Virus record (IMG/VR): IMGVR_UViG_3300021185_002017
DNA length: 64,000 bases
Source of the DNA: a virus
Lineage: Duplodnaviria > Caudoviricetes
Direction: 5' to 3' (one strand)
This document shows positions 7,319 through 26,265 of the stretch, in pieces; positions within the stretch are counted from its first letter, which is position 1, and the number at the start of each line of letters is the position of its first letter. Both the position numbers and the translations under genes were made by a program. The notes under the pieces were generated by a model. The model was not told the DNA's origin, ran no database searches, and worked only from the letters and a program-made list of their open reading frames with translations.

Positions 7319-8167
7319 TTATTTTCCTTGTTTACTTCTTGTTCTAGGACTCTCTGGACTACCTAAAAATTCATTGTTTCTAGTATATGAAGGAGTTTCT
7401 CTGTCTACTCCTTGAGTTAAAAATTTTGTTACAAGATCAAATACATCAACATTTTGCTCGAACCTATTTAGATCTTGCTGGTCTAAATCAAAGTTAAACT
7501 TCTGGTTAACTGTCATACTTTCTATTTCAAAGTCTATTGAAAATGTTCTAAAGCCAGAATCAGTATAATCTAGGTCATCGGGGGCAAATCCGGTTATTTG
7601 AGGTCTAAATAAAATATATTCAACTCCTCTACCACCATGGTATTGAATTATTCTGATACTATCAATAAAATGTGTTTCTTCGTGTATATCCATTCCTGCG
7701 TCATTGCTCTTCCATGCACTGGACATAAAAGAGGCTGGAGCAATAGTAGATGTAGCATTAGTGTCCCATTGCTTAGGATCGCCATCTCTTGTAGTGCCAT
7801 CGCCGGTGCCTGTTCTATTACGAGGATCGTTATATTGAAATGCAAAGTACTTCATAAACAAAGTAAGCCATTCGTTAGCCACAGTGTCAATGACTGTCAT
7901 ACTGCAAGGGCCGTAATCGACCCCTGTCTGTATAACTCTGCGATGATTGTATTGTCTTTTGATTGTTGTAGCAAAAGATATTTCTGGTATTTTACAAGTT
8001 TGAACCAGAGAACTAATCTGTGTTCTAAAAGACCCGGAATTATCCATTGCTTTTGCCAGTCTAGGGTTAAAGTGAAATTCCACAAACCCTTGAAACTTTT
8101 GTCTAGGTGGCGTAACATCAGGTTTAAACCTGTCTGCATTACGCCAATTCCTAAAGAAAGATGGCAT
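7319..8167 (-). CDS. Tail tube-like protein (gp19/gp54-like paralog)
   Basis: Tube-type pattern (CKIPEISF..TIKRQYN...DYGPCSMTVID...LDY); directly downstream of the tube gene. Confidence 0.6.
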   Translation of the reverse strand: MPSFFRNWRNADRFKPDVTPPRQKFQGFVEFHFNPRLAKAMDNSGSFRTQISSLVQTCKIPEISFATTIKRQYNHRRVIQTGVDYGPCSMTVIDTVANEWLTLFMKYFAFQYNDPRNRTGTGDGTTRDGDPKQWDTNATSTIAPASFMSSAWKSNDAGMDIHEETHFIDSIRIIQYHGGRGVEYILFRPQITGFAPDDLDYTDSGFRTFSIDFEIESMTVNQKFNFDLDQQDLNRFEQNVDVFDLVTKFLTQGVDRETPSYTRNNEFLGSPESPRTRSKQGK

Positions 8168-8181
8168 AGTTAGTTACCTTC

Positions 8182-8817
8182 TTAACCTGCTGGGCTAGTA
8201 GTCACTAAACCTGTTGCTGCGGCTGTGAATGGTGATTCATTACCAGCTCTACCGTTAACGTTATTTGTACCCGCTTCGTGTGTAGCATTATCAAATCTTA
8301 ATGTTAAAGTAACAATCTGTGACTCAGCTGCTGAATAGTCGTGATCACCGTAAGTAACGTTTTGGATGAAACATCCTTCTAAACGCCAAAACTCAGTTGG
8401 TTTGCTTATTTCAGTACCATCTAGTACTTCAATGTCAGTATCAAATTTAAAGTCGTTACTTGAAGCAGCAGTTGTTTGCTGATAGTGGTTGACTTGTCTT
8501 TGTACTTGAGCACCAACAAGTTTAGCAACACTGTTAGTAATATCATCACGAATAACAACATCTACTGTTTGCCATGTATGCTTGCCTTGTACATAAATTT
8601 TACTGTTAAAACTGTGTACTTCTACTTCGTCAACACTAACAGATGGTCTAGTTACACTTTGAACATTTTGTGTTAGTGATGTTGAATTTTGTGAACCTGC
8701 AAAAGGCGACAAAAAGTTTACACGGAAACGATACTTTAACTTAGGCATTAAAATGCCTGCTTTTTTATTAGCCTCGTCTATCGGTACTCCGAACTTATCT
8801 TTAGTTGGATTTGCCAT
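8182..8817 (-). CDS. gp19: Tail tube protein (gp19-like)
   Basis: VTRPSVSVDEVEV, GKHTWQTVDVVIRDD, WRLEGCFIQNVTYGDHDY, LTLRFD; follows the sheath gene; GATAAATA at 8861-8868. Confidence 0.85.
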   Translation of the reverse strand: MANPTKDKFGVPIDEANKKAGILMPKLKYRFRVNFLSPFAGSQNSTSLTQNVQSVTRPSVSVDEVEVHSFNSKIYVQGKHTWQTVDVVIRDDITNSVAKLVGAQVQRQVNHYQQTTAASSNDFKFDTDIEVLDGTEISKPTEFWRLEGCFIQNVTYGDHDYSAAESQIVTLTLRFDNATHEAGTNNVNGRAGNESPFTAAATGLVTTSPAG

Positions 8818-8909
8818 TTTTATATTCTCCTAAAAAATCTATAAATGTTTTATATGCTATTATTTATCAGATAATGACAAAAAACATAAACTCGAGTTTT
8901 AATTTAGTC

Positions 8910-8937
8910 AAAAAAAAGCACTCCGAAGAGTGCTTTT
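8910..8937 (-). terminator. Rho-independent terminator with C(UUCG)G tetraloop
   Basis: Minus strand AAAAGCACTC-TTCG-GAGTGCTTTTTTTT after the sheath gene. Confidence 0.85.
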
Positions 8938-8956
8938 AATTAGTTTAAGTATAAAC

Positions 8957-11770
8957 TTAACCAGTTGAACCCAAAGTATTTTGAATTCTAATCGGAATGT
9001 ATATAAACTCAACTGCTTTGACTGGCTGTATAGCAACGTCAATGTGCAATTCGTTTCTATCAATTCTCGCTGGTGTGTTATTTGATTCGTCACAAACTGT
9101 AACATAGTCAAATAAACCACGCTGTTGTATTAAACCACTAAGTAGTCTGTCAACAACTGCTTTTGCGTTATTTCTAGTAACACTGTCGTTTGGCTCAAAT
9201 AAGAACGGCTTAACTGCATCGTCAAGTTGCTCTCTGAGATAGATAACTAATCTTGAAACATTAACTCTATCCAACGCACTTGCTGATGGGTTTAATGTCT
9301 TTTGACCAAACACACTTATGCCTCTGCCTGGGAATGATGCAATTGGGTTTACCTTGTTTAAGTATAAACCGTCACGCTGTCCTTCGTTCAATGAAACTGG
9401 GACATATTCACCTTCTGCTGAGTCTAAGTATCCTACTGAAGTTGCATTACTAACTAAACCACGTTGGAAACCAGCCGGTGCAAACCAAGGGAAAGCAACC
9501 TGGTCATTGTATGCGAATGTACGCAATGCCATATGTGATGCTGGTACCATAATGTTAGTACCATCTGTGTTAGTAGTTAAACCATGTGGGTAATAAACAC
9601 CTGCTTGAGCACTTGCACTTACAAGACCGTTTTCACCGTTTTCTACTGCTGTATTAGCATTAGTTGCCCATGCTGCTGTGCTAGTATTATCGGCTTTTAG
9701 TCTAAGTGGAGCGTCAACGATTGCAAAGACTGTGTCTTTTCTGTCAACACTTAATGCTAACATTTCGTCAGTTAATTCAGGATATCCTGGAACTGCTACT
9801 AAGTTAAAGCGGTTTGTTTCGTTACGAATGTCATCGTTAGATGCAATTGCTGCTTGTAAAGATTTAGTTACTGCTTTACGCTGTGCCTTTCTTAACAATA
9901 AGCCTGTGCCATCTGCTGCGTTACCTGAGAATGATACCCAAACATCAGCAGTTGTACTTGAATCTAATGCATAGCCTTTACGCCATTGCTTAACATTACC
10001 ACCTGAAGCTCTGTAGTTCCAACCTAACATACCTTGTGGGTATAAAGATGCACTTGGAGCGTCTGCATCTAATGAAGATGCTGCTGATTGTCTAAAGTCA
10101 TCAAATAAGATACCGTCTGGTGTGCTTTGATCACCAAGATCAACTAGATTCCAACTTGAACCATCATACTTATAAAGTTTTAAGTTTTCAGTGTCTGAGC
10201 TGTCTAACCATACATCGCCACTTGCTAAAGAAGTAGTACCGTCACTTTGTAGTGTTGGTTCTGTTGCTTTAGTTTGGAAATCAGTTGTTAAACTTACCCA
10301 TGTAGTACCGTTGTGCTCTAGTAAGTCTACATTGTTAGTGCTGATGTCTGCATCATACCATAATGTAGCATTTGCTGTTTCGCCTACTGGCTCAGTTGCA
10401 CTTGGTGTATTAGCTGCTAAAGAAACTTTCCAGTTACTTGTAGTACCTGCGTTTAAGTTTAAGTCACTTAAACTAACACATGCTGAGTTTGAACCTTCAG
10501 TAAGTTTAATGTCATTACCTTTAGTACTTGTAAATGTTATAACACCTGCGTTATTCGATACTGTCACTTGGTCTGCAAATGTAGTTGTTACATTAGCGGA
10601 AGATAGTGCTGATTGAATATCAGTAACAACATCATCAACTGAAATATTACCACTTGTTGTACTTGTGATGAATACATCAATTTGTGTTGGTGAGTTGTTG
10701 ATGTTAATTTGGAATGCTTCGTCTACTGAATTAACTTTAGTATCAGGTATAGCAGTGTCGCTTACTGCGGAAGAACTTCCGAATGTAAAGCTGCTTTCAC
10801 CATTCCACATTTTTAATCTAAATGATGCAACTCTTGCGAAAGAGTCGTTAACTTGATCTAACCATAAAGCACCTGAGTTCAAAGAACCTGCTTTTGTATG
10901 ATAATCATATGCGTCTGATGCTTCACTAAGTAATGGAGCGTCCTTGCTTACGAACTGTCCTGAAACTGCATCGTACTGCTTAACTTGAACGTTTGCGCCA
11001 TTGTTAGGTGCTGTTGCTTGTAAGAATACATCACCTGCTGATAATGCACCACCTGAGAACTTAGTTGAAGGAATAGTTGTATGAGTTGCCCACTGATAGT
11101 CTGCACTTGATTTAGCACTTGACCATGCAGAAGAACCTACACTATACCAGTTACCTGCTAGTTTTTCATATATTGATATGAATGAAGCCTGAGCACCTGT
11201 GCTGTCAACTGTAACTGCTGCAAAAGAGCCGTTAGTTGAGAACGATGTTTTAGGTACAGTATTTGCATACACATCATTTTTACCTGCTAATAGAACTGTT
11301 TGTGTTACCCACTTGCTGCCGTCATATTCTTTAATACCGAATGTTGAACTGCCTGTGTCAACCCAAATAGCGTCTGCTGCTGGTTTAGCTGCTGGTGCAG
11401 TTGCACTTGCTTCTAATTGACCTAAGTCTACATCTGCTCTAAGTACATAAGCTCTGTTTGATAAGCCTAAGAAACTGTAAGCTGCTGCAAGACCGTATTC
11501 GTTTGTTTCGTCTCCGTGAACTGGTGTTCCGCCACTTGTTTTAAATGATGGGTTACCGTAGTTTTGTAGTAATTCACGCTGACTAGTTATATTATATAAC
11601 TTGTTTGCTGTTGCCTTTGTAGTATAAGCGGAAGTCGAAGTTCCATCTGGTGCTGTCTTATCTTGTGCTGTTGCAATTACGATAAGAGGAACAGTACCAG
11701 CACCTGCAGGTGCGTAGAAACTTTCGTCTGATACACTAATACTAACGCCTGGCGATACTAATGTTGCCAT
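8957..11770 (-). CDS. gp18: Tail sheath protein (gp18-like) with large internal insertion
   Basis: N-terminal LVSPGVSISVSDES; C-terminal PWFAPAGFQRG, KVNPI, GQKTL, RVNVSRL, AVEFIYI; GATAAATA at 11816-11823. Confidence 0.95.
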   Translation of the reverse strand: MATLVSPGVSISVSDESFYAPAGAGTVPLIVIATAQDKTAPDGTSTSAYTTKATANKLYNITSQRELLQNYGNPSFKTSGGTPVHGDETNEYGLAAAYSFLGLSNRAYVLRADVDLGQLEASATAPAAKPAADAIWVDTGSSTFGIKEYDGSKWVTQTVLLAGKNDVYANTVPKTSFSTNGSFAAVTVDSTGAQASFISIYEKLAGNWYSVGSSAWSSAKSSADYQWATHTTIPSTKFSGGALSAGDVFLQATAPNNGANVQVKQYDAVSGQFVSKDAPLLSEASDAYDYHTKAGSLNSGALWLDQVNDSFARVASFRLKMWNGESSFTFGSSSAVSDTAIPDTKVNSVDEAFQININNSPTQIDVFITSTTSGNISVDDVVTDIQSALSSANVTTTFADQVTVSNNAGVITFTSTKGNDIKLTEGSNSACVSLSDLNLNAGTTSNWKVSLAANTPSATEPVGETANATLWYDADISTNNVDLLEHNGTTWVSLTTDFQTKATEPTLQSDGTTSLASGDVWLDSSDTENLKLYKYDGSSWNLVDLGDQSTPDGILFDDFRQSAASSLDADAPSASLYPQGMLGWNYRASGGNVKQWRKGYALDSSTTADVWVSFSGNAADGTGLLLRKAQRKAVTKSLQAAIASNDDIRNETNRFNLVAVPGYPELTDEMLALSVDRKDTVFAIVDAPLRLKADNTSTAAWATNANTAVENGENGLVSASAQAGVYYPHGLTTNTDGTNIMVPASHMALRTFAYNDQVAFPWFAPAGFQRGLVSNATSVGYLDSAEGEYVPVSLNEGQRDGLYLNKVNPIASFPGRGISVFGQKTLNPSASALDRVNVSRLVIYLREQLDDAVKPFLFEPNDSVTRNNAKAVVDRLLSGLIQQRGLFDYVTVCDESNNTPARIDRNELHIDVAIQPVKAVEFIYIPIRIQNTLGSTG

Positions 11771-11874
11771 TTTGTTTTCTCCTAATATATTAAGATACGA
11801 ATGATCGTATGCACTTATTTATCAGAATTAAGGTATTATTGGGCTTTATGGAAATTGAAAGGTATTAGGGGATA

Positions 11875-12537
11875 TTATACTATTTTAAGTGTTTGTTTGA
11901 ATTCGCCTGTGTTCCAGTCTCGAATGTCTTCTACTTGTTTTTCTAGATCTTTAATTGTGCCGTTGTTTGTAATAATGTAGTCTACTGGATGACCTACCCA
12001 GTTCCATTCGCTTTCGTGTACATCTGCATATTTGGTTTTCATTATCTTGTGACTAACTGCATTAGTGTGTGCTGTTTTTGCTGTTTCGAACCATTCAGGT
12101 AAATCTCCGCGTTGTACCCAAATAACAACTCCACCCATTTCTTTGATAAGATCTAATTCGTTTTTAAATCTTGCATCGCTAATAACAGTACAAGGTGTAT
12201 CTACATGTTGCCTTCGTATGCGATATTCTAAACTGTGTAGCCAAATGTTAGAATCAAAGTGTGTGCGGAGTACATCTGTACCTATTAATTGCAAGGCTAA
12301 TCGAGGAGTGAAGTTTGGGATACCTAGTTTGCGACCCCAGTATAGGTCTGCTGTTTCACGGAAGTCTCTACTTTCAATAGTATCGCCTTCCATTAGTTCT
12401 CTGGGCCAACCAAATATTGATGCAGATAAGTCTTTTAATGGAGAAGCAAAACTATCTTCAACGCAACCACGCTCTACAAACATGTTTGCGACTGTGCCTT
12501 TGCCTGAACCTATTAGTCCAACTAATCCTATTATCAT
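11875..12537 (-). CDS. gp1: Deoxynucleoside monophosphate kinase (gp1-like)
   Basis: P-loop GLIGSGKGT, SFASPLKD, PRLALQLIGTD, ISDARF.NE, HESE motifs. Confidence 0.9.
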   Translation of the reverse strand: MIIGLVGLIGSGKGTVANMFVERGCVEDSFASPLKDLSASIFGWPRELMEGDTIESRDFRETADLYWGRKLGIPNFTPRLALQLIGTDVLRTHFDSNIWLHSLEYRIRRQHVDTPCTVISDARFKNELDLIKEMGGVVIWVQRGDLPEWFETAKTAHTNAVSHKIMKTKYADVHESEWNWVGHPVDYIITNNGTIKDLEKQVEDIRDWNTGEFKQTLKIV

Positions 12538-12540
12538 ATA

Positions 12541-13299
12541 TTAACCTATTACAAATCCTAGTGGGTCACTGCCTTCTTCCATCATGTGAACCGCTTCATT
12601 TAGTTTCTCTAACTCTGCTTGAGCTTCTGATTTCAGTGCATCACCGTTAAGAGTAATTGCACCACCTGCACCTGGTAAGCCTGAACTATATTTGCTTCTT
12701 GCTTCACCTAGCATAAACTTACTTTGTGCTAGTGCGTATGCACTTAACCAGTCACTTGCATAGACATCTTTTAACAGTATCATTTCTGGTATAAAGTTAT
12801 ATACACCTACTGCTACTTCTTCGTTATGTCTAACATTTCTTAAAATCTGTAATACTTTGCTGTTGCGATTCCAAATAAAGTTATATTCACTACCAAATAT
12901 ACGCCCTACTGTTTCTTTGTATTGTGAGAACGCATCATAAACTGCTAGGCCGCCTATTTGTCCTGCCTGCATCATGTACATGTTGTTGAATGCAACATCA
13001 AAAGGATCAAAGTTTACGCCGCCACTGTTAGTACCAATACCTCTACGATAAAGTCTTCTAACTTCCATTACTTCGTCTGGTAAAACATATTCAGTTACAT
13101 TTTCTTGAGTAGTAATAAAGATCATACTTTCTTCAACTGCACCAGAACTAAGTTGTCTATACTTAGCAAGTGCCTTGTTGATAGCAACATCGTAATGTTC
13201 TCTATCGAGTTCTACATCAACAATACCATCTGCTAAACGCAGTTTGATTTCGCTAATAAGTTGCTCTCTGTTTTCGTAACCTATTTTATTAATCGCCAT
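12541..13299 (-). CDS. gp13: Neck protein (gp13-like)
   Basis: LRLADGIVDVEL, K..LGEARSKY..LPG.GG.ITLNG pattern; GATAAATA at 13305-13312. Confidence 0.8.
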   Translation of the reverse strand: MAINKIGYENREQLISEIKLRLADGIVDVELDREHYDVAINKALAKYRQLSSGAVEESMIFITTQENVTEYVLPDEVMEVRRLYRRGIGTNSGGVNFDPFDVAFNNMYMMQAGQIGGLAVYDAFSQYKETVGRIFGSEYNFIWNRNSKVLQILRNVRHNEEVAVGVYNFIPEMILLKDVYASDWLSAYALAQSKFMLGEARSKYSSGLPGAGGAITLNGDALKSEAQAELEKLNEAVHMMEEGSDPLGFVIG

Positions 13300-13314
13300 A
13301 ACACTATTTATCTA

Positions 13315-14451
13315 CTAAAAGGCTTTTAATATGATAGTTGTGTCATTAAAACGCCCGTTCATCTTAGTATCCGTTGTCGTAAGGTCCTTAAACGCCTTAC
13401 TAAACTTAGTCTTTGCATTTCCAGTCCAGTTTTTAATTTGTTCTGCTGGTTTACGCAATGTTTTTTGTACACTCTTAGTAGGATGAAAATCTTGTAGTGT
13501 TGTTCCTTTAACAGTCATGCCGCCTTTTAGATCATCTACTACATACATGCCTACTTTACGAGTTTTTGTATTATACACCCAAATCTCTGTTGCGTCAATG
13601 ACTTCAGTTGGATTAATACTTGCAATACCTAATCCACTGTCATTAATCTGGAACTTCAATTTGCTTACAACTTTTTCTTTACTTACTGCTTTAGGCTTAC
13701 GAGTCTTTCTGTTTGCTTTGCCTGTTAAGATAAATGCATCACAAGCCGCATTAATTTTTTCATAAATGGCCAAGAAGTCTTTACGCATTTTCTTGTCCAT
13801 GAAGTTGTATGCTTCTTTAATGTCTTCGTCTTTCCATTCTACAACTTCTAATGCTTCTCGATATGCTGAATCAAAATCGTCTTTAATAATTTTTGCATGA
13901 TTAGGTTTTACAACGCCACCACCGTACACTTTCATTTCTGTAAACGGGTCAAACTTTTTAAGATCAAACTTACCAGTTACTAAATCATCAATGTGACCTT
14001 CCCAATTGCCTAATAGGCCTTGCACCTGCTCGAACATTCTTTGTTGTATACTAACTTTGGGTTTTGCATCAGCCGCCTTTGCTTCTTTCTCTTCTATGAT
14101 GTTTTCGGCTTTGTTTTCTAATGCAGGAATTTTATTTAATAGATGTTCCTTAACATCTGGGTTCATGTAGCCATTTGTTTTGTGCCAAATGTAAGTGTGT
14201 TTAGCAAACGAACTAAACCACACATCAGGAACCTTTCTTAACTTCTTGATTAGGTCTTTGTCTAAGCCGCTATCTTTTTCTAACCAAGTAAAGATTGTAG
14301 ATGCACATTTCTTGTCTGCTACTTCGTAATGTACAAAGTATTCAAACTTGCGATACAATTTAGTCTTCTCTTCGTCAGTTTTAAGGGTATGTATTTCCTG
14401 CCACTTAGGTTCTGGCATTAAATATATGTCTTTACTTTTGCGTCTGGCCAT
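13315..14451 (-). CDS. Conserved hypothetical protein of T4-like phages
   Basis: 378 aa basic protein; C-terminal WVYNTKTRK...TVKGTTL...SVQKTLRKP resembles proteins of T4-like phages; function unknown. Confidence 0.7.
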   Translation of the reverse strand: MARRKSKDIYLMPEPKWQEIHTLKTDEEKTKLYRKFEYFVHYEVADKKCASTIFTWLEKDSGLDKDLIKKLRKVPDVWFSSFAKHTYIWHKTNGYMNPDVKEHLLNKIPALENKAENIIEEKEAKAADAKPKVSIQQRMFEQVQGLLGNWEGHIDDLVTGKFDLKKFDPFTEMKVYGGGVVKPNHAKIIKDDFDSAYREALEVVEWKDEDIKEAYNFMDKKMRKDFLAIYEKINAACDAFILTGKANRKTRKPKAVSKEKVVSKLKFQINDSGLGIASINPTEVIDATEIWVYNTKTRKVGMYVVDDLKGGMTVKGTTLQDFHPTKSVQKTLRKPAEQIKNWTGNAKTKFSKAFKDLTTTDTKMNGRFNDTTIILKAF

Positions 14452-24076: not shown

Positions 24077-24084
24077 TATTTATC
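24077..24084 (-). promoter_or_regulatory. T4-like late promoter (GATAAATA) for the cyclase
   Basis: Exact motif 5 nt upstream of the cyclase start. Confidence 0.6.
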
Positions 24085-24589
24085 GTATTCTATTGCAGTT
24101 ATTTCTGGCTTCGGATAGCACATCATAGTTATTTGCAATCACATGAGCCATTATAAAATTTGGTGCGTATAAGTCGTTGTTTTGAATATCACGCCATTGT
24201 GAATATAATGCAGGACCTAGTAATATTAACTTTAGAAATATTATTTCTTCTGTTGAAGGTCGTTTGCCTAATAAGGGATTTAATTCTTCTACACAGTCAA
24301 ATTTTAATGCCTCTTTAGTTGTGTATACATCTAATAATTGTAATGTAAAAAATATTGTCCATTGCACATTATCAGCTCGTTCGAATGTAAAGTCTAAATC
24401 AAGTTTAGGGTGGGTGAGATGCTTAGGCATATCTTTGTACTGTTCTAATAGTACGCCGTTTATTGTTTCTTCACTGTAGCAACAATAATTACCTGCGTAT
24501 ATAAGTTGTTTTTGAGTTAATGTTAAACTGAGGGCATTTGTACTAAAAAATAAAAGCGACAACGATGCTATTATCATTGCCGCTTTCAC
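24080..24589 (-). CDS. Secreted/membrane hypothetical protein
   Basis: Signal-peptide-like N-terminus; LQLLDVYTT...ELNPLLG segment; GTG start. Confidence 0.65.
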   Translation of the reverse strand: MKAAMIIASLSLLFFSTNALSLTLTQKQLIYAGNYCCYSEETINGVLLEQYKDMPKHLTHPKLDLDFTFERADNVQWTIFFTLQLLDVYTTKEALKFDCVEELNPLLGKRPSTEEIIFLKLILLGPALYSQWRDIQNNDLYAPNFIMAHVIANNYDVLSEARNNCNRIR

Positions 24590-24590
24590 C

Positions 24591-24713
24591 TTACTCGCAC
24601 TCCTGAGGATTTTCAGAACAATATTTTTTGATTTGTTGAATTAACATTTTTATATCGCTCTCATTATCTGCCTTCTTCTCCTTTCGTGGAGACAAAAGGC
24701 TTAGTCCTTTTTT
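24591..24713 (-). other. Candidate programmed -1 frameshift site and 38 aa extension frame of the lipoprotein gene
   Basis: A_AAA_AAG (24713-24707) just before the TAA; hairpin 7 nt downstream (24699-24671); the -1 frame is open to TAA at 24593-24591. Confidence 0.65.
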
Positions 24714-25003
24714 GGTTCTTGCAATTCGTCAGTTTGTTTATCGACTTCCTGTTCTACAGTTTCTATAACACCACTAGCTGCTTCCGCTGCTGTAGTTGCT
24801 ATGCTAGAAGCATCTTTTAAAACCGCTTGACTTACAGTCGAAACGGCATTAACAGATCCATCTACTACGCCGGTTGTGAACTCTTTACCACCTTCAATAA
24901 CTGCACCAACTGATGCACATGACGGTAAAAATACCACCAAACTGAGACCTGCTAGAATAGTGAATAGTCTATTCATAAGGTTCTCCTTAGTTTGTTGTAA
25001 CAT
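24701..25003 (-). CDS. Small lipoprotein
   Basis: Signal peptide with lipobox-like FLPSC; probable start at MNRLF (after GGAGA RBS); GGTAAATA late-type motif at 25025-25032. Confidence 0.7.
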   Translation of the reverse strand: MLQQTKENLMNRLFTILAGLSLVVFLPSCASVGAVIEGGKEFTTGVVDGSVNAVSTVSQAVLKDASSIATTAAEAASGVIETVEQEVDKQTDELQEPKKD

Positions 25004-25052
25004 GCGGCATGCATATTACAATAGTATTTACCTTATATAAAGGCAAGTTATC

Positions 25053-25169
25053 TTAGATTAGAAGTAATCCTATTGCAAAGCCTATGTTTAAGCCTATAGA
25101 ACAAACTAATATAAAGTCCTTATTAAACGAATATGGTACTAGTTCTACTATTTCTTTGTTATGTGCCAT
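25053..25169 (-). CDS. 38 aa single-TM micro-protein (not in ORF track)
   Basis: AGGAATAGG RBS then MAHNKEIVELVPYSFNKDFILVCSIGLNIGFAIGLLLI*; fills the gap after the curlin gene. Confidence 0.55.
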   Translation of the reverse strand: MAHNKEIVELVPYSFNKDFILVCSIGLNIGFAIGLLLI

Positions 25170-25176
25170 CCTATTC

Positions 25177-26265
25177 CTAGTTGCTACCATTCACTGTTAT
25201 TGAACACCCTGCTGTGTTAAAACATATACCTGTGATGCTGTAAGTGCCTGCTGATGATGTCATGTTTTGTATTAAGTCAAGTGTGTAAGCACCAGTACCG
25301 TATGTTAAATCTATGGTTGCTGTTGCGTTATTGCTGCCTCGTTGGTTAACATCAACACTATGTCCATCACCATCTAACACAATGTCTGCCCATTTAACAC
25401 CACCGTTGCCTCGTTGATATAAGTCTACGGTGTTATTATCACCGCCTATTTCTATAAAGCCATCGTGTCCTGCTTTGCCCATTTGTGTATGCTCTACACT
25501 ATTACTATCGCCAGTAATAATATTTGCTAAATGATGTCCTGCTCCGCCGCCTGATCTGTTTGTATCTGTTTGATAACTTGCTAACGAATTATTATCTCCA
25601 GTCACAGTCCAGTATGCTTCGTGGTCTCCTACTTCGTCTGAATCTGTTGTGCCGTCGGCATGTTTGCCTTGCCATACTCTGAGATCGTTGTTATCTGATC
25701 CGGAACCCATAATAGCTCTAATATAATTGTCATCCTGCCCGTTACCCTGGAAAGCATCAATGCTATTATTGCTACCAGAAAATACTTCAAGGTAAGCATA
25801 ATGGTCATCGCCTTCTTGCCAAAGTTGTATTTCATTATCAGTGTTAGAATTACTAGTACCTGATTCTAACCAAGCATAATTGTTATCACCCATTACATCT
25901 ACTTTTAAATCAGTATAATTACCATGGGCATCTAATAATACTGCGTTGTAATCACCTTCTGTGTAGGCATCTAATGTTTGATTACTACCACTACTCCATA
26001 TACCTAAAACATTATTGTGGCCTCTTTGTTGTAGGCTTACTGTTTTTGTGGCGCCATTAAGAATGGCAGCTGAATTTGCGTTGTCTAATTTTCTAATTGT
26101 ATTGCCGGTCCCTGCTTGTAATATATCCATTGTTAGGTTATCACCTGTCTGATCTATATTTATTTCGTTGTCTTGGCCGTAGCATGCCTGTGCAGTAAAG
26201 AACATTAATATAACTAGTATACCTAAATGTGTTCCTGTTATTTTGTTTAATATATTTTTAATCAT
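25177..26265 (-). CDS. Curlin-repeat protein (CsgA/CsgB-like, long form)
   Basis: Signal peptide then many N-x-h-x-h-x-Q-x-G repeats (NEINIDQTG, NEIQLWQEG, NTVDLYQRG, HSVDVNQRG); probable start 26265 overlapping the FecR stop (track start 26295). Confidence 0.75.
   Translation of the reverse strand: MIKNILNKITGTHLGILVILMFFTAQACYGQDNEINIDQTGDNLTMDILQAGTGNTIRKLDNANSAAILNGATKTVSLQQRGHNNVLGIWSSGSNQTLDAYTEGDYNAVLLDAHGNYTDLKVDVMGDNNYAWLESGTSNSNTDNEIQLWQEGDDHYAYLEVFSGSNNSIDAFQGNGQDDNYIRAIMGSGSDNNDLRVWQGKHADGTTDSDEVGDHEAYWTVTGDNNSLASYQTDTNRSGGGAGHHLANIITGDSNSVEHTQMGKAGHDGFIEIGGDNNTVDLYQRGNGGVKWADIVLDGDGHSVDVNQRGSNNATATIDLTYGTGAYTLDLIQNMTSSAGTYSITGICFNTAGCSITVNGSN

What the first reader, a model, noticed from the sequence alone, without database searches (positions are those of the whole stretch)
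24591..24713. dnaX-type -1 frameshift extends the curli-cassette lipoprotein with a two-Cys tail
Seen on the minus strand: the lipoprotein ends CCA AAA AAG GAC TAA, containing in-frame A_AAA_AAG (24713-24707). Seven nt downstream is the stem-loop CCTT-TTG-TCTCC-ACGAAA-GGAGA-AG-AAGG (24699-24671). The -1 frame reads GLSLLSPRKEKKADNESDIKMLIQQIKKYCSENPQECE* and stops at 24591, one base before the next gene's GTG, exactly filling the gap. Known: A_AAA_AAG plus a 3' hairpin is the classic bacterial -1 signal (dnaX, IS3 family). Inference: two lipoprotein isoforms are made at a fixed ratio, the longer with a CxxxxxxC tail.
Basis: partly seen in the sequence, partly recalled or inferred. Interest (0 to 1): 0.72.

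Follow-up and report, generated by a model that had tools for sequence, protein, structure and literature searches.

The report
Frameshift-extended lipoprotein of marine phages
A small late lipoprotein gene of an uncultured marine T4-like phage ends in a ribosome slip site that is kept in nearly every relative examined, so it very probably makes a short protein and a 37-residue-longer one with a cysteine-looped tail, a classical mechanism that I found no report of in this kind of gene.

Summary

**In the window**
- The window is an uncultured marine T4-like myovirus of the pelagimyophage/Melnitz kind, not a bacterium.
- Its 91-aa lipoprotein gene (24976-24701, minus strand) ends CCA AAA AAG GAC TAA.
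- A -17 kcal/mol hairpin starts 6 nt after the heptamer, and the -1 frame stays open for 38 codons.
- These features alone are weak. The heptamer is not rare in the window, and 4.5% of shuffles keep the frame open.

**In relatives**
- About 95 distinct homologous gene ends came from 170 phage and metagenome loci. They were retrieved with peptide patterns that do not include the slip site.
- Every end with a tail has an in-frame slippery heptamer, either A_AAA_AAG or G_GGA_AAG. The switch between them happened at least three times.
- Synonymous sites are frozen: AAG 84/84 and CCA 41/41.
- A hairpin follows 5-9 nt downstream, with compensatory changes.
- The -1-frame tail evolves as protein and carries Y-C-x3-P-x2-C. 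It stays in the -1 frame across ten linker lengths.
- Eleven variants have no start codon in the tail frame.
- The two lineages without a heptamer also lack the tail.

**Limits and novelty**
- The function of the tail is unknown.
- I found no paper describing this frameshift.
- This scan had already noted the same phenomenon on other phage genomes.

The parts
25025..25032 (-). T4-type late-promoter-like motif GGTAAATA, 48 nt upstream of the ATG
   Evidence: Read. An NATAAATA-like motif lies 14-75 nt upstream of the start in 84 of 84 homologous loci.
24983..24988 (-). Shine-Dalgarno AAGGAG of the lipoprotein gene
   Evidence: Read. Similar GGAG motifs were seen in the 12 homologs printed.
24701..24976 (-). 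0-frame lipoprotein ORF of 91 aa. The signal peptide is residues 1-19, the lipobox Cys is residue 20, and the mature short form is 72 aa.
   Evidence: There are 147 homologs, nearly all 88-97 aa, with invariant Cys20. The AF2 model is one long helix at low confidence.
24707..24713 (-). Slippery heptamer A_AAA_AAG in the 0 frame (CC[A AAA AAG])
   Evidence: It is kept in frame in 84 of 86 distinct ends, 76 as A_AAA_AAG and 8 as G_GGA_AAG, with frozen synonymous sites. More divergent loci show the same.
24701..24706 (-). 6-nt spacer GACTAA, which contains the 0-frame stop TAA (24703-24701)
   Evidence: The stop lies 0 or 1 codon after the heptamer in all 84 ends.
24670..24700 (-). Stimulatory hairpin of 12 base pairs with one bulge and a 6-nt loop
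   Evidence: -17 kcal/mol, z -3.7. A hairpin starts 5-7 nt after the heptamer in all 47 distinct type-1 sequences, with at least five unrelated stem sequences. In alignment A3, 5 of 11 pairs show compensatory change and 93% of cells are paired against 41-53% when the partner is slid.
24591..24707 (-). -1 frame extension of 38 codons plus TAA, entered by re-reading G24707. The long mature form would be 109 aa.
   Evidence: The tail is conserved as protein in 78 complete tails. Entropy by codon position is 0.80/0.44/1.20. The synonymous share of codon differences is highest in this frame.
24594..24656 (-). Conserved tail module: an amphipathic helix followed by the loop Y-C-x3-P-x2-C (Cys30, Pro34 and Cys37 invariant)
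   Evidence: Alignment A4. AF2 gives pLDDT 94-97 over the last 18 residues, with a helix at 15-32 and then a turn.
24080..24589 (-). Next gene, an exported 169-aa protein. Its GTG lies one base after the tail's stop, so translational coupling to frameshifted ribosomes is possible.
   Evidence: The same stop-N-start layout occurs in 10 distinct relatives, whereas 36 have a terminator there instead.

Best explanation
**What it is.** This is a genuine programmed -1 ribosomal frameshift site at the 3' end of a late-expressed phage lipoprotein gene.

**How it works.**
- Most ribosomes read CCA AAA AAG GAC and stop, giving a 72-aa mature, mostly helical lipoprotein.
- A fraction pause on the hairpin that begins 6 nt downstream. 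Their tRNAs slip back one base on A_AAA_AAG, and they continue in the -1 frame for 38 codons.
- This gives a 109-aa mature form whose extra tail is a flexible linker, an amphipathic helix and a Cys-x6-Cys loop. After export that loop is probably closed by a disulfide.

**Shown and inferred.**
- Shown by comparison: the signal (heptamer, spacing, hairpin) and the coding nature of the tail are under selection across a large family of marine T4-like phages.
- Inferred: that the shift is ribosomal, its efficiency, the disulfide, and the role of the tail.
- My best guess for the role is a docking or oligomerisation module that gives a fixed minority of the envelope-anchored protein an extra binding end.
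For: **1. Unbiased retrieval.** Loci were fetched with peptide patterns from the N-terminal and core parts of the protein, not from the slip site.

**2. Heptamer.** It is in frame in 84 of 86 distinct ends, with the 0-frame stop 0 or 1 codon later. The same holds in divergent homologs of 47-60% identity.

**3. Frozen synonymous sites.**
- Lys codons elsewhere in the gene are AAA 216 against AAG 44, yet the second heptamer codon is AAG 84/84.
- The Pro codon that supplies the first A is CCA 41/41, against 7 of 36 elsewhere.

**4. Heptamer swaps.** A_AAA_AAG was replaced by G_GGA_AAG at least 3 times on the tree. That heptamer has no homopolymer run.

**5. Coupled loss.** The only lineages without a heptamer (L035/L036 and L180) have no tail. 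In L035/L036 a terminator follows the stop directly. L035 is otherwise nearly identical to the tail-bearing L018.

**6. The tail is coding.**
- Of 78 complete tails, 77 carry YCxxxPxxC and one carries FCxxxPxxC.
- Entropy is highest at the third position of -1-frame codons.
- Synonymous to nonsynonymous codon differences are 6620:11720 in the -1 frame, against 2661:16244 and 903:17529 in the other two frames.

**7. Frame linkage.** Ten different linker lengths (16-43 codons) all keep the motif in the -1 frame of the lipoprotein.

**8. No start codon.** Eleven distinct tails have no ATG, GTG or TTG before the motif.

**9. Hairpin.** It keeps its spacing and shows covariation.

**10. Transcript end.** A terminator follows the tail's stop, not the 0-frame stop, in 36 of 77 distinct sequences.

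**11. Not an assembly error.** The sequence is identical in nine further independent assemblies (a tenth, L005, has a scaffold gap over the hairpin and early tail). No in-frame fused form appears among the 120 listed homologs.
Against: - No experimental datum exists: no peptide, no ribosome footprint, no reporter assay. The host and its tRNA-Lys set are unknown.
- In this window alone the features are only marginally beyond chance.
- The hairpin region is also coding in the -1 frame, and its 5' end overlaps the 0-frame stop, so part of its conservation has other causes.
- Covariation is clear only in type-1 sequences. It is weak in type 2 and absent within the small type-3 set.
- The upstream Shine-Dalgarno-like enhancer of dnaX is absent in the window.
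Confidence: 0.88

Rival explanations
1. Transcriptional slippage. RNA polymerase adds one A in the A6-A7 run, and ordinary translation of the edited mRNA gives the same long protein.
For: The heptamer contains a run of 6 A (7 in GAA AAA AAG relatives). An inserted A would give the same frame.
Against: - At least three lineages replaced the run by G_GGA_AAG, which has no homopolymer.
- The final G is kept 84/84 although AAA is the preferred Lys codon.
- A hairpin at the 5-7 nt spacing typical of ribosomal stimulators is conserved with covariation.
- From established knowledge, efficient slippage usually needs runs of about 9 or more.
Confidence: 0.05
2. The tail is a separate small gene, translated from its own start (TTG 24695 or ATG 24647) or by re-initiation after the 0-frame stop.
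For: The window has TTG 24695 (34 codons) and ATG 24647 (18 codons). Of 77 distinct tails, 62 have an ATG somewhere before the motif.
Against: - Eleven distinct tails have no ATG, GTG or TTG.
- The Met position is replaced by I, L, V, T or F in relatives.
- No Shine-Dalgarno motif lies at a proper distance from ATG 24647.
- Ten linker lengths all preserve the -1 frame relative to the lipoprotein, which an independent gene would not need.
- Loss of the heptamer coincides with loss of the tail.
Confidence: 0.03
3. There is no recoding. The region after the stop is an untranslated spacer with a stabilising or regulatory hairpin, and the open -1 frame is incidental.
For: In the window alone an open 38-codon frame arises in 4.5% of shuffles. 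The heptamer is common in this AT-rich genome.
Against: - The region shows a protein-like substitution pattern with invariant Cys, Pro and Cys.
- AF2 models the module confidently.
- The same module occurs as tandem repeats in secreted bacterial proteins.
- The hairpin has no U-run, and the true terminator follows the tail.
Confidence: 0.02
4. Sequencing or assembly error in the A-run. The true gene is one continuous 128-codon ORF.
For: Two database proteins (P0098, P0125) read through the site in one frame.
Against: - Both come from pilon-polished long-read contigs whose neighbouring genes are shattered into small ORFs. P0098 is in the +1 frame, and P0125 has a second frame break.
- Nine further independent assemblies match the window base for base across the site (a tenth, L005, has a scaffold gap after the stop).
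- About 95 distinct relatives all have the 0-frame stop.
Confidence: 0.01

Closest known systems
E. coli dnaX tau/gamma -1 frameshift and the IS3/IS911 orfA-orfAB sites (established knowledge)
   Same: The heptamer A_AAA_AAG is identical, and a stem-loop lies about 6 nt downstream. Two products arise from one gene.
   Different: Here the shift lengthens the protein, whereas in dnaX it truncates it. There is no upstream Shine-Dalgarno-like enhancer. The gene is a phage late lipoprotein. The 0-frame stop sits inside the spacer or directly after the heptamer.
Phage lambda G/GT tail assembly chaperone frameshift and its analogues in tailed phages (established knowledge: G_GGA_AAG)
   Same: It is a phage late gene with a slip site near the end of the short ORF, giving a C-terminally extended minor form. 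Relatives of this gene use exactly G_GGA_AAG.
   Different: The gene is not a tail gene. Its product has a signal peptide and a lipobox. The extension is only 31-53 residues, and a conserved hairpin accompanies the site.
Phage T7 capsid gene 10A/10B -1 frameshift (established knowledge)
   Same: The shift occurs just before the stop of a late gene and adds a short C-terminal extension to a minority of molecules.
   Different: The slippery sequence, the protein class and the cellular compartment are all different.
Curli (CsgG/CsgF) operon of pelagimyophages and Methylophilales phage Melnitz (PMC7029224, PMC9004378)
   Same: The phage group and the gene cassette around the window's copy are the same. 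CsgG is 45.6% identical to HTVC008M and 43.5% to Melnitz.
   Different: Neither paper contains the words lipoprotein or frameshift. The HTVC008M cassette has no lipoprotein gene and no 169-aa gene. No record among 50,697 phage records holds a homolog.
Braun's lipoprotein Lpp (resemblance only, from established knowledge)
   Same: Both are small outer-membrane-type lipoproteins predicted as one long helix. The basic C-terminus ends in Lys in types 2 and 3.
   Different: No sequence similarity was detected (no Pfam family). Oligomeric state and peptidoglycan linkage were not tested. The AF2 model has low confidence.

Membership tests
Canonical -1 programmed ribosomal frameshift cassette (X_XXY_YYZ plus a 3' stimulator) | Slippery heptamer X_XXY_YYZ positioned in the 0 frame | tested here: met
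   A_AAA_AAG at 24713-24707 in frame. It is in frame in 84 of 86 distinct relatives and in divergent ones.
Canonical -1 programmed ribosomal frameshift cassette (X_XXY_YYZ plus a 3' stimulator) | Stable RNA structure 5-9 nt downstream, supported by covariation | tested here: met
   Hairpin of -17 kcal/mol after a 6-nt spacer. All 47 type-1 sequences have one. Five of 11 pairs are compensatory. Support is weaker for types 2 and 3.
Canonical -1 programmed ribosomal frameshift cassette (X_XXY_YYZ plus a 3' stimulator) | The -1 ORF is under protein-coding selection and linked in frame to the upstream ORF, with no start of its own | tested here: met
   codon-position entropy, synonymous excess, 10 linker lengths all in the -1 frame, and 11 tails without a start codon.
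Canonical -1 programmed ribosomal frameshift cassette (X_XXY_YYZ plus a 3' stimulator) | Selection on synonymous sites of the heptamer | tested here: met
   AAG 84/84 against 17% elsewhere, and CCA 41/41 against 19% elsewhere. The heptamer has decayed where the tail is lost (L035).
Canonical -1 programmed ribosomal frameshift cassette (X_XXY_YYZ plus a 3' stimulator) | Two protein products demonstrated | not testable with these tools
dnaX-type tripartite signal specifically | Shine-Dalgarno-like enhancer about 10 nt upstream of the heptamer | tested here: not met
   The upstream sequence GACGAATTGCAAGAACC has no GGAG- or AGGA-like element.
Bacterial lipoprotein (Lgt/LspA substrate) | Signal peptide ending in a lipobox with an invariant Cys | tested here: met
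   The sequence reads MNRLFTILAGLSLVVFLPS|C. Cys20 is invariant in 36 aligned homologs. This was judged by pattern only, since no dedicated predictor was available.
Two-component spanin, o-spanin subunit | Lipoprotein gene embedded in, overlapping or adjacent to an i-spanin gene, with a proline-rich unstructured mature part | tested here: not met
   Neighbours are curlin-repeat, CHASE2-cyclase or capsid and tail-tube genes. The mature part has a single Pro, near the C-terminus, and is modelled as a helix.
CP12 / HdeA-HdeB (Cys-loop motif resemblance of the tail) | Match to the family profile above its threshold | tested here: not met
   - HdeA matches 5 of 51 tails, best E 0.009, below the cut-off.
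- HdeB in the PDB matches at E 0.75 over 11 residues.
- CP12 matches only at E 0.16, and only on the repeat protein P0128.

The most novel reading that the evidence does not exclude
The frameshift sets the stoichiometry of a periplasm-spanning, Lpp-like helical lipoprotein assembly. In it a fixed minority of chains carry a disulfide-stapled docking module that ties the outer membrane to an inner partner. In cassette-type phages such as this one that partner could be the exported 169-aa protein or the CHASE2 cyclase sensor. Because the tail's stop lies one base from the next gene's GTG, frameshifted ribosomes would also gate translation of that gene, making the slip site a translational control point for an envelope-signalling module.
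Probability: 0.1. Interest if true: 0.82.

Novelty: new member of a known kind. Interest (0 to 1): 0.7.

Why it matters
- **A new class of frameshifted phage gene.** Conserved -1 frameshift sites in tailed phages are known chiefly from tail assembly chaperones and a few capsid genes. This one sits in an exported lipoprotein gene.
- **Abundance.** The family is widespread in abundant marine T4-like phages. Relatives include the phages of SAR11 and OM43.
- **Annotation.** Gene callers systematically miss the long isoform, or call its tail as a spurious 35-49 aa ORF.
- **Comparative proof.** The family shows heptamer swaps, coupled loss and hairpin covariation in one data set, and so offers natural variants for studying stimulator strength.
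- **A small fold to characterise.** The tail defines a short Cys-loop module that also occurs as tandem repeats in secreted bacterial proteins.
- **Second site in the genome.** I did not check it.

Tried and rejected
- **Whole-genome relatives.** No genome is held for this window.
- **Genome-contig scan with the lipoprotein alignment.** 100 pattern matches, none confirmed.
- **tblastn of the lipoprotein against 50,697 phage records.** No hit at 1e-4, and only noise at E up to 10.
- **Family libraries.** Pfam, PHROGs and NCBIfam gave no family for the lipoprotein or the tail.
- **PDB search with the tail.** The profile search gave only HdeB at E 0.75. Foldseek of the tail model against the PDB found nothing.
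- **AF2 of the lipoprotein.** One long helix, but mean pLDDT is 59.5, so I made no fold claim.
- **ESM Atlas look-up of the repeat protein P0128.** Only unnamed clusters, all scoring below 0.9.
- **Apparent in-frame fusions P0098 and P0125.** Rejected as indel artefacts of pilon-polished long-read contigs.
- **tRNA genes.** None in the window.
- **Literature.** Five searches found no report of this frameshift.

Full report
**What is in the window**

On the minus strand, an ORF runs from ATG 24976 to TAA 24703-24701.
- It encodes 91 residues with a typical signal peptide and a lipobox (…FLPS|C, Cys20).
- It is preceded by AAGGAG (24988-24983) and by a T4-late-promoter-like GGTAAATA (25032-25025).
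- Its last codons are CCA AAA AAG GAC TAA, so A_AAA_AAG (24713-24707) lies in the X_XXY_YYZ register.
- After the 6-nt spacer GACTAA, a hairpin (24700-24670) folds at -17 kcal/mol. Shuffles give -7.9 +/- 2.4, z is -3.7, and 1 of 200 shuffles does as well.
- Re-reading G24707 opens a 38-codon -1 frame that ends at TAA 24593-24591. That is one base before GTG 24589 of the next gene, an exported 169-aa protein.

By themselves these features prove little:
- AAAAAAG occurs 26 times in the window against 29.6 expected.
- 4.5% of shuffles of the tail keep the frame open.

**What the genome is**

The window is not bacterial.
- It carries a T4-type large terminase, a tail sheath, a gp15 sheath stabiliser and baseplate or fibre domains.
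- Its CsgG is closest to those of Pelagibacter phage HTVC008M (45.6%) and Methylophilales phage Melnitz (43.5%) among 50,697 phage records.
- The curli-like CsgF/CsgG operon of these phages is published (PMC7029224, PMC9004378). Neither paper contains the words lipoprotein or frameshift.
- The HTVC008M cassette goes straight from the second curlin-like gene to the cyclase, with no lipoprotein gene and no 169-aa gene.
- No record in that phage collection holds a homolog of the lipoprotein. Pfam, PHROGs and NCBIfam have no family for it.

**Relatives**

- A protein search found 147 homologs, nearly all 88-97 aa. All come from marine metagenomes, and none is an in-frame fusion. The longer ones are N-terminal over-calls.
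- I fetched DNA for 170 homologous loci: 10 identical-protein contigs, 10 from exact look-ups, 80 from IMG/VR and 80 from metagenomes.
- Retrieval used peptide patterns in the N-terminal and core regions, so it was blind to the slip site.
- Contexts differ. About half of the loci sit in the curlin/169-aa/CHASE2 context of the window. Thirteen directly follow the major capsid gene gp23 and precede the tail tube gene. The rest lie elsewhere. The gene is thus a self-contained unit and not a fixed part of the curli cassette.
- An NATAAATA-like late promoter motif lies 14-75 nt upstream of the ATG in 84 of 84 loci.
- In 36 of 77 distinct sequences a rho-independent terminator follows the stop of the tail, not the 0-frame stop.

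**The slip site is conserved**

Of 86 usable distinct gene ends, 84 have an in-frame slippery heptamer 0 or 1 codon before the stop: 76 A_AAA_AAG and 8 G_GGA_AAG. Ten loci that my first anchor missed (47-60% identity) were examined separately.
- Seven show the same layout, with A_AAA_AAG or G_GGA_AAG followed by a tail.
- One (L099) is cut by the contig end and a second (L176) is a partial copy. Both still show the AAA AAG end.
- One (L180) has neither a heptamer nor a tail.

Synonymous sites are frozen:
- Lys codons elsewhere in these genes are AAA 216 against AAG 44, yet the second heptamer codon is AAG in 84 of 84.
- The Pro codon that supplies the first A is CCA in 41 of 41, while Pro codons elsewhere are CCA in only 7 of 36.
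- When Pro is one codon further upstream it is mostly CCT or CCG.
- The flanking codons (GAC/GAT, TAA/TAG/TGA, Leu, Gln and Glu codons) vary freely.

On a tree of 76 distinct core proteins, well-supported branches force at least three switches between the two heptamers. G_GGA_AAG is the heptamer of the lambda G/GT site (established knowledge). It has no homopolymer run, which argues for tandem tRNA slippage and against RNA polymerase stuttering.

**Coupled loss**

- The only lineages without a heptamer are L035/L036 (CCT AAA CAG GAC TGA) and L180 (CCA AAA GAT AAG TAA).
- Both also lack the tail. In L035/L036 a terminator follows the stop at once.
- L035 is nearly identical in its core to the tail-bearing L018. 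Once the tail was lost, the synonymous CCA and the AAG were no longer held.

**The tail is a protein**

- Of 78 complete -1 extensions, 77 contain Y-C-x3-P-x2-C and one contains F-C-x3-P-x2-C.
- In the alignment of 51 distinct tails, Cys30, Pro34 and Cys37 are invariant, and Ile19, Leu22 and Tyr29 are nearly so.
- Over a 57-nt ungapped block, mean entropy by -1-frame codon position is 0.80, 0.44 and 1.20.
- Synonymous to nonsynonymous codon differences are 6620:11720 in the -1 frame, against 2661:16244 and 903:17529 in the other two registers.
- The linker between slip site and motif takes ten different lengths (16 to 43 codons), yet the motif is always in the -1 frame of the lipoprotein.
- Eleven distinct tails, among them the gp23-adjacent L018 type, have no ATG, GTG or TTG before the motif. 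They can only be reached from the upstream ORF.
- The Met at ATG 24647 is I, L, V, T or F in relatives.

**The hairpin**

- In all 47 distinct type-1 sequences the MFE structure has a hairpin that starts 5-7 nt after the heptamer. At least five unrelated stem sequences occur, for example GCCT…AGGC with an inner TCTC/GAGA stem, GCCATTC/GAATGGC, GCCAGCC/GGTTGGC, CCTTTTC/GAAAAGG and GTCT…AGGAC.
- In a 22-sequence subgroup of equal length, 5 of 11 pairs show compensatory double changes. There 93% of cells pair, against 41-53% when the 3' partner is slid. No shuffle out of 500 reaches the observed covariation.
- Type 2 has its stop directly after the heptamer. It shows a two-tier hairpin 8-9 nt downstream with two covarying inner pairs.
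- The main type-3 group has an invariant 7-bp stem 6 nt downstream. Other G_GGA_AAG lineages have different stems at the same place.
- No U-run follows the hairpin, so it is not a terminator.
- Caveat: the stem also encodes the tail's first residues.

**Rivals**

- *Transcriptional slippage* is disfavoured by the G_GGA_AAG swaps, the strict final G and the conserved stimulator spacing.
- *A separate small ORF or re-initiation* is excluded by the start-less tails and by the frame linkage.
- *Assembly error* is excluded by base-for-base agreement with nine further independent assemblies across the slip site, hairpin and tail (a tenth, L005, has a scaffold gap there). The two database proteins that read through the site (P0098 and P0125) both come from pilon-polished long-read contigs with shattered neighbouring genes.

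**What the products may do (inference)**

- The +2 residue after the lipid-bearing Cys is Ala. By the enterobacterial rule this suggests outer-membrane sorting (established knowledge, not tested here).
- AF2 models the lipoprotein as one long helix at low confidence (mean pLDDT 59.5). That is compatible with an elongated, possibly oligomeric, Lpp-like protein, but I make no fold claim.
- The tail is modelled confidently at its C-terminal end (pLDDT 94-97). It has a helix at residues 15-32, then a Pro turn that brings Cys37 back towards Cys30. In the periplasm this would probably be a disulfide-stapled cap.
- A profile of the tails searched against 1.84 billion proteins found only small ORFs mis-called in the -1 frame and a few others. 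Among the others are two secreted bacterial proteins (P0128, P0130) with three or four tandem repeats of helix plus [YF]CxxNPxxCE. The module therefore exists independently in exported proteins.
- Similarities to HdeA/HdeB and to the CP12 C-terminal loop are below threshold.
- My working model is that the frameshift gives a fixed minority of the envelope-anchored protein an extra docking or oligomerisation end.
- In the window and nine other distinct relatives, the tail's stop lies within 5 nt of the start codon of the next gene. In the window and the two relatives whose sequence I read directly (L011, L013) the gap is a single base. Coupling of that gene to frameshifted ribosomes is therefore possible, but it is not general.

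**Comparison and novelty**

- Mechanistically this is the classical bacterial -1 cassette (dnaX, IS3/IS911, lambda G/GT, T7 10A/10B), without the upstream Shine-Dalgarno enhancer of dnaX.
- What is new is the gene: an exported lipoprotein of a large family of uncultured marine T4-like phages.
- Five literature searches found no report of it.
- This scan had already noted the same family-level phenomenon on other phage genomes (e1-5341351, e1-5338574, e1-5338565). It had also noted a second -1 site in this same genome (e1-5362624), which I did not check.
- I class the finding as a new member of a known kind. It is well supported by comparison and still lacks any experimental test.

Noticed in passing
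window 25025-25032 (minus strand), and 84 homologous loci: Every homolog has an NATAAATA-like T4 late-promoter motif 14-75 nt upstream of the lipoprotein ATG (GATAAATA 36, CATAAATA 24, TATAAATA 12). Many have their own terminator after the tail. The gene therefore looks like an autonomous late transcription unit that has moved between genome positions.
   Followed up: partly
P0128 and P0130: Two secreted bacterial proteins of 144 and 136 aa consist of 3-4 tandem repeats of a helix followed by [YF]CxxNPxxCE. This is the same module as the phage tail. No Pfam or NCBIfam family matches.
   Followed up: partly
window 24587-24593, and 9 other distinct relatives: In the window the tail's stop and the GTG of the next gene (exported 169-aa protein, weak DUF5658 match) are separated by one base (TAA G GTG). 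A GGAG lies inside the last tail codons. This layout would allow termination-reinitiation coupling to frameshifted ribosomes.
   Followed up: no
L018-L020, L034 (phage contigs): In one clade the lipoprotein gene sits directly between the major capsid gene gp23 and the tail tube gene, far from any curli genes.
   Followed up: partly
L181 (HTVC008M 7562-13807): The cultured pelagimyophage HTVC008M has the same order CsgF, CsgG, curlin-like, FecR-sized, curlin-like, cyclase. It lacks the lipoprotein gene and the 169-aa gene, so these two are additions in the uncultured clade.
   Followed up: partly
L017 and L182 (pilon-polished long-read contigs): In these contigs homopolymer indels shatter most genes. 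This creates database proteins (P0098, P0125) that mimic read-through or fusion of the lipoprotein and its tail.
   Followed up: yes
I did not examine it.
   Followed up: no
window 24080-25200: Six marine metatranscriptome runs hold 37-52% of the sampled words of this stretch.
   Followed up: no
L021 / L101 (IMG/VR UViG_3300021378_002043 = Ga0213861_10005651): A 9996-bp public contig classed as viral encodes a lipoprotein and tail identical to the window's, so the phage or a very close strain is already present in IMG/VR.
   Followed up: no
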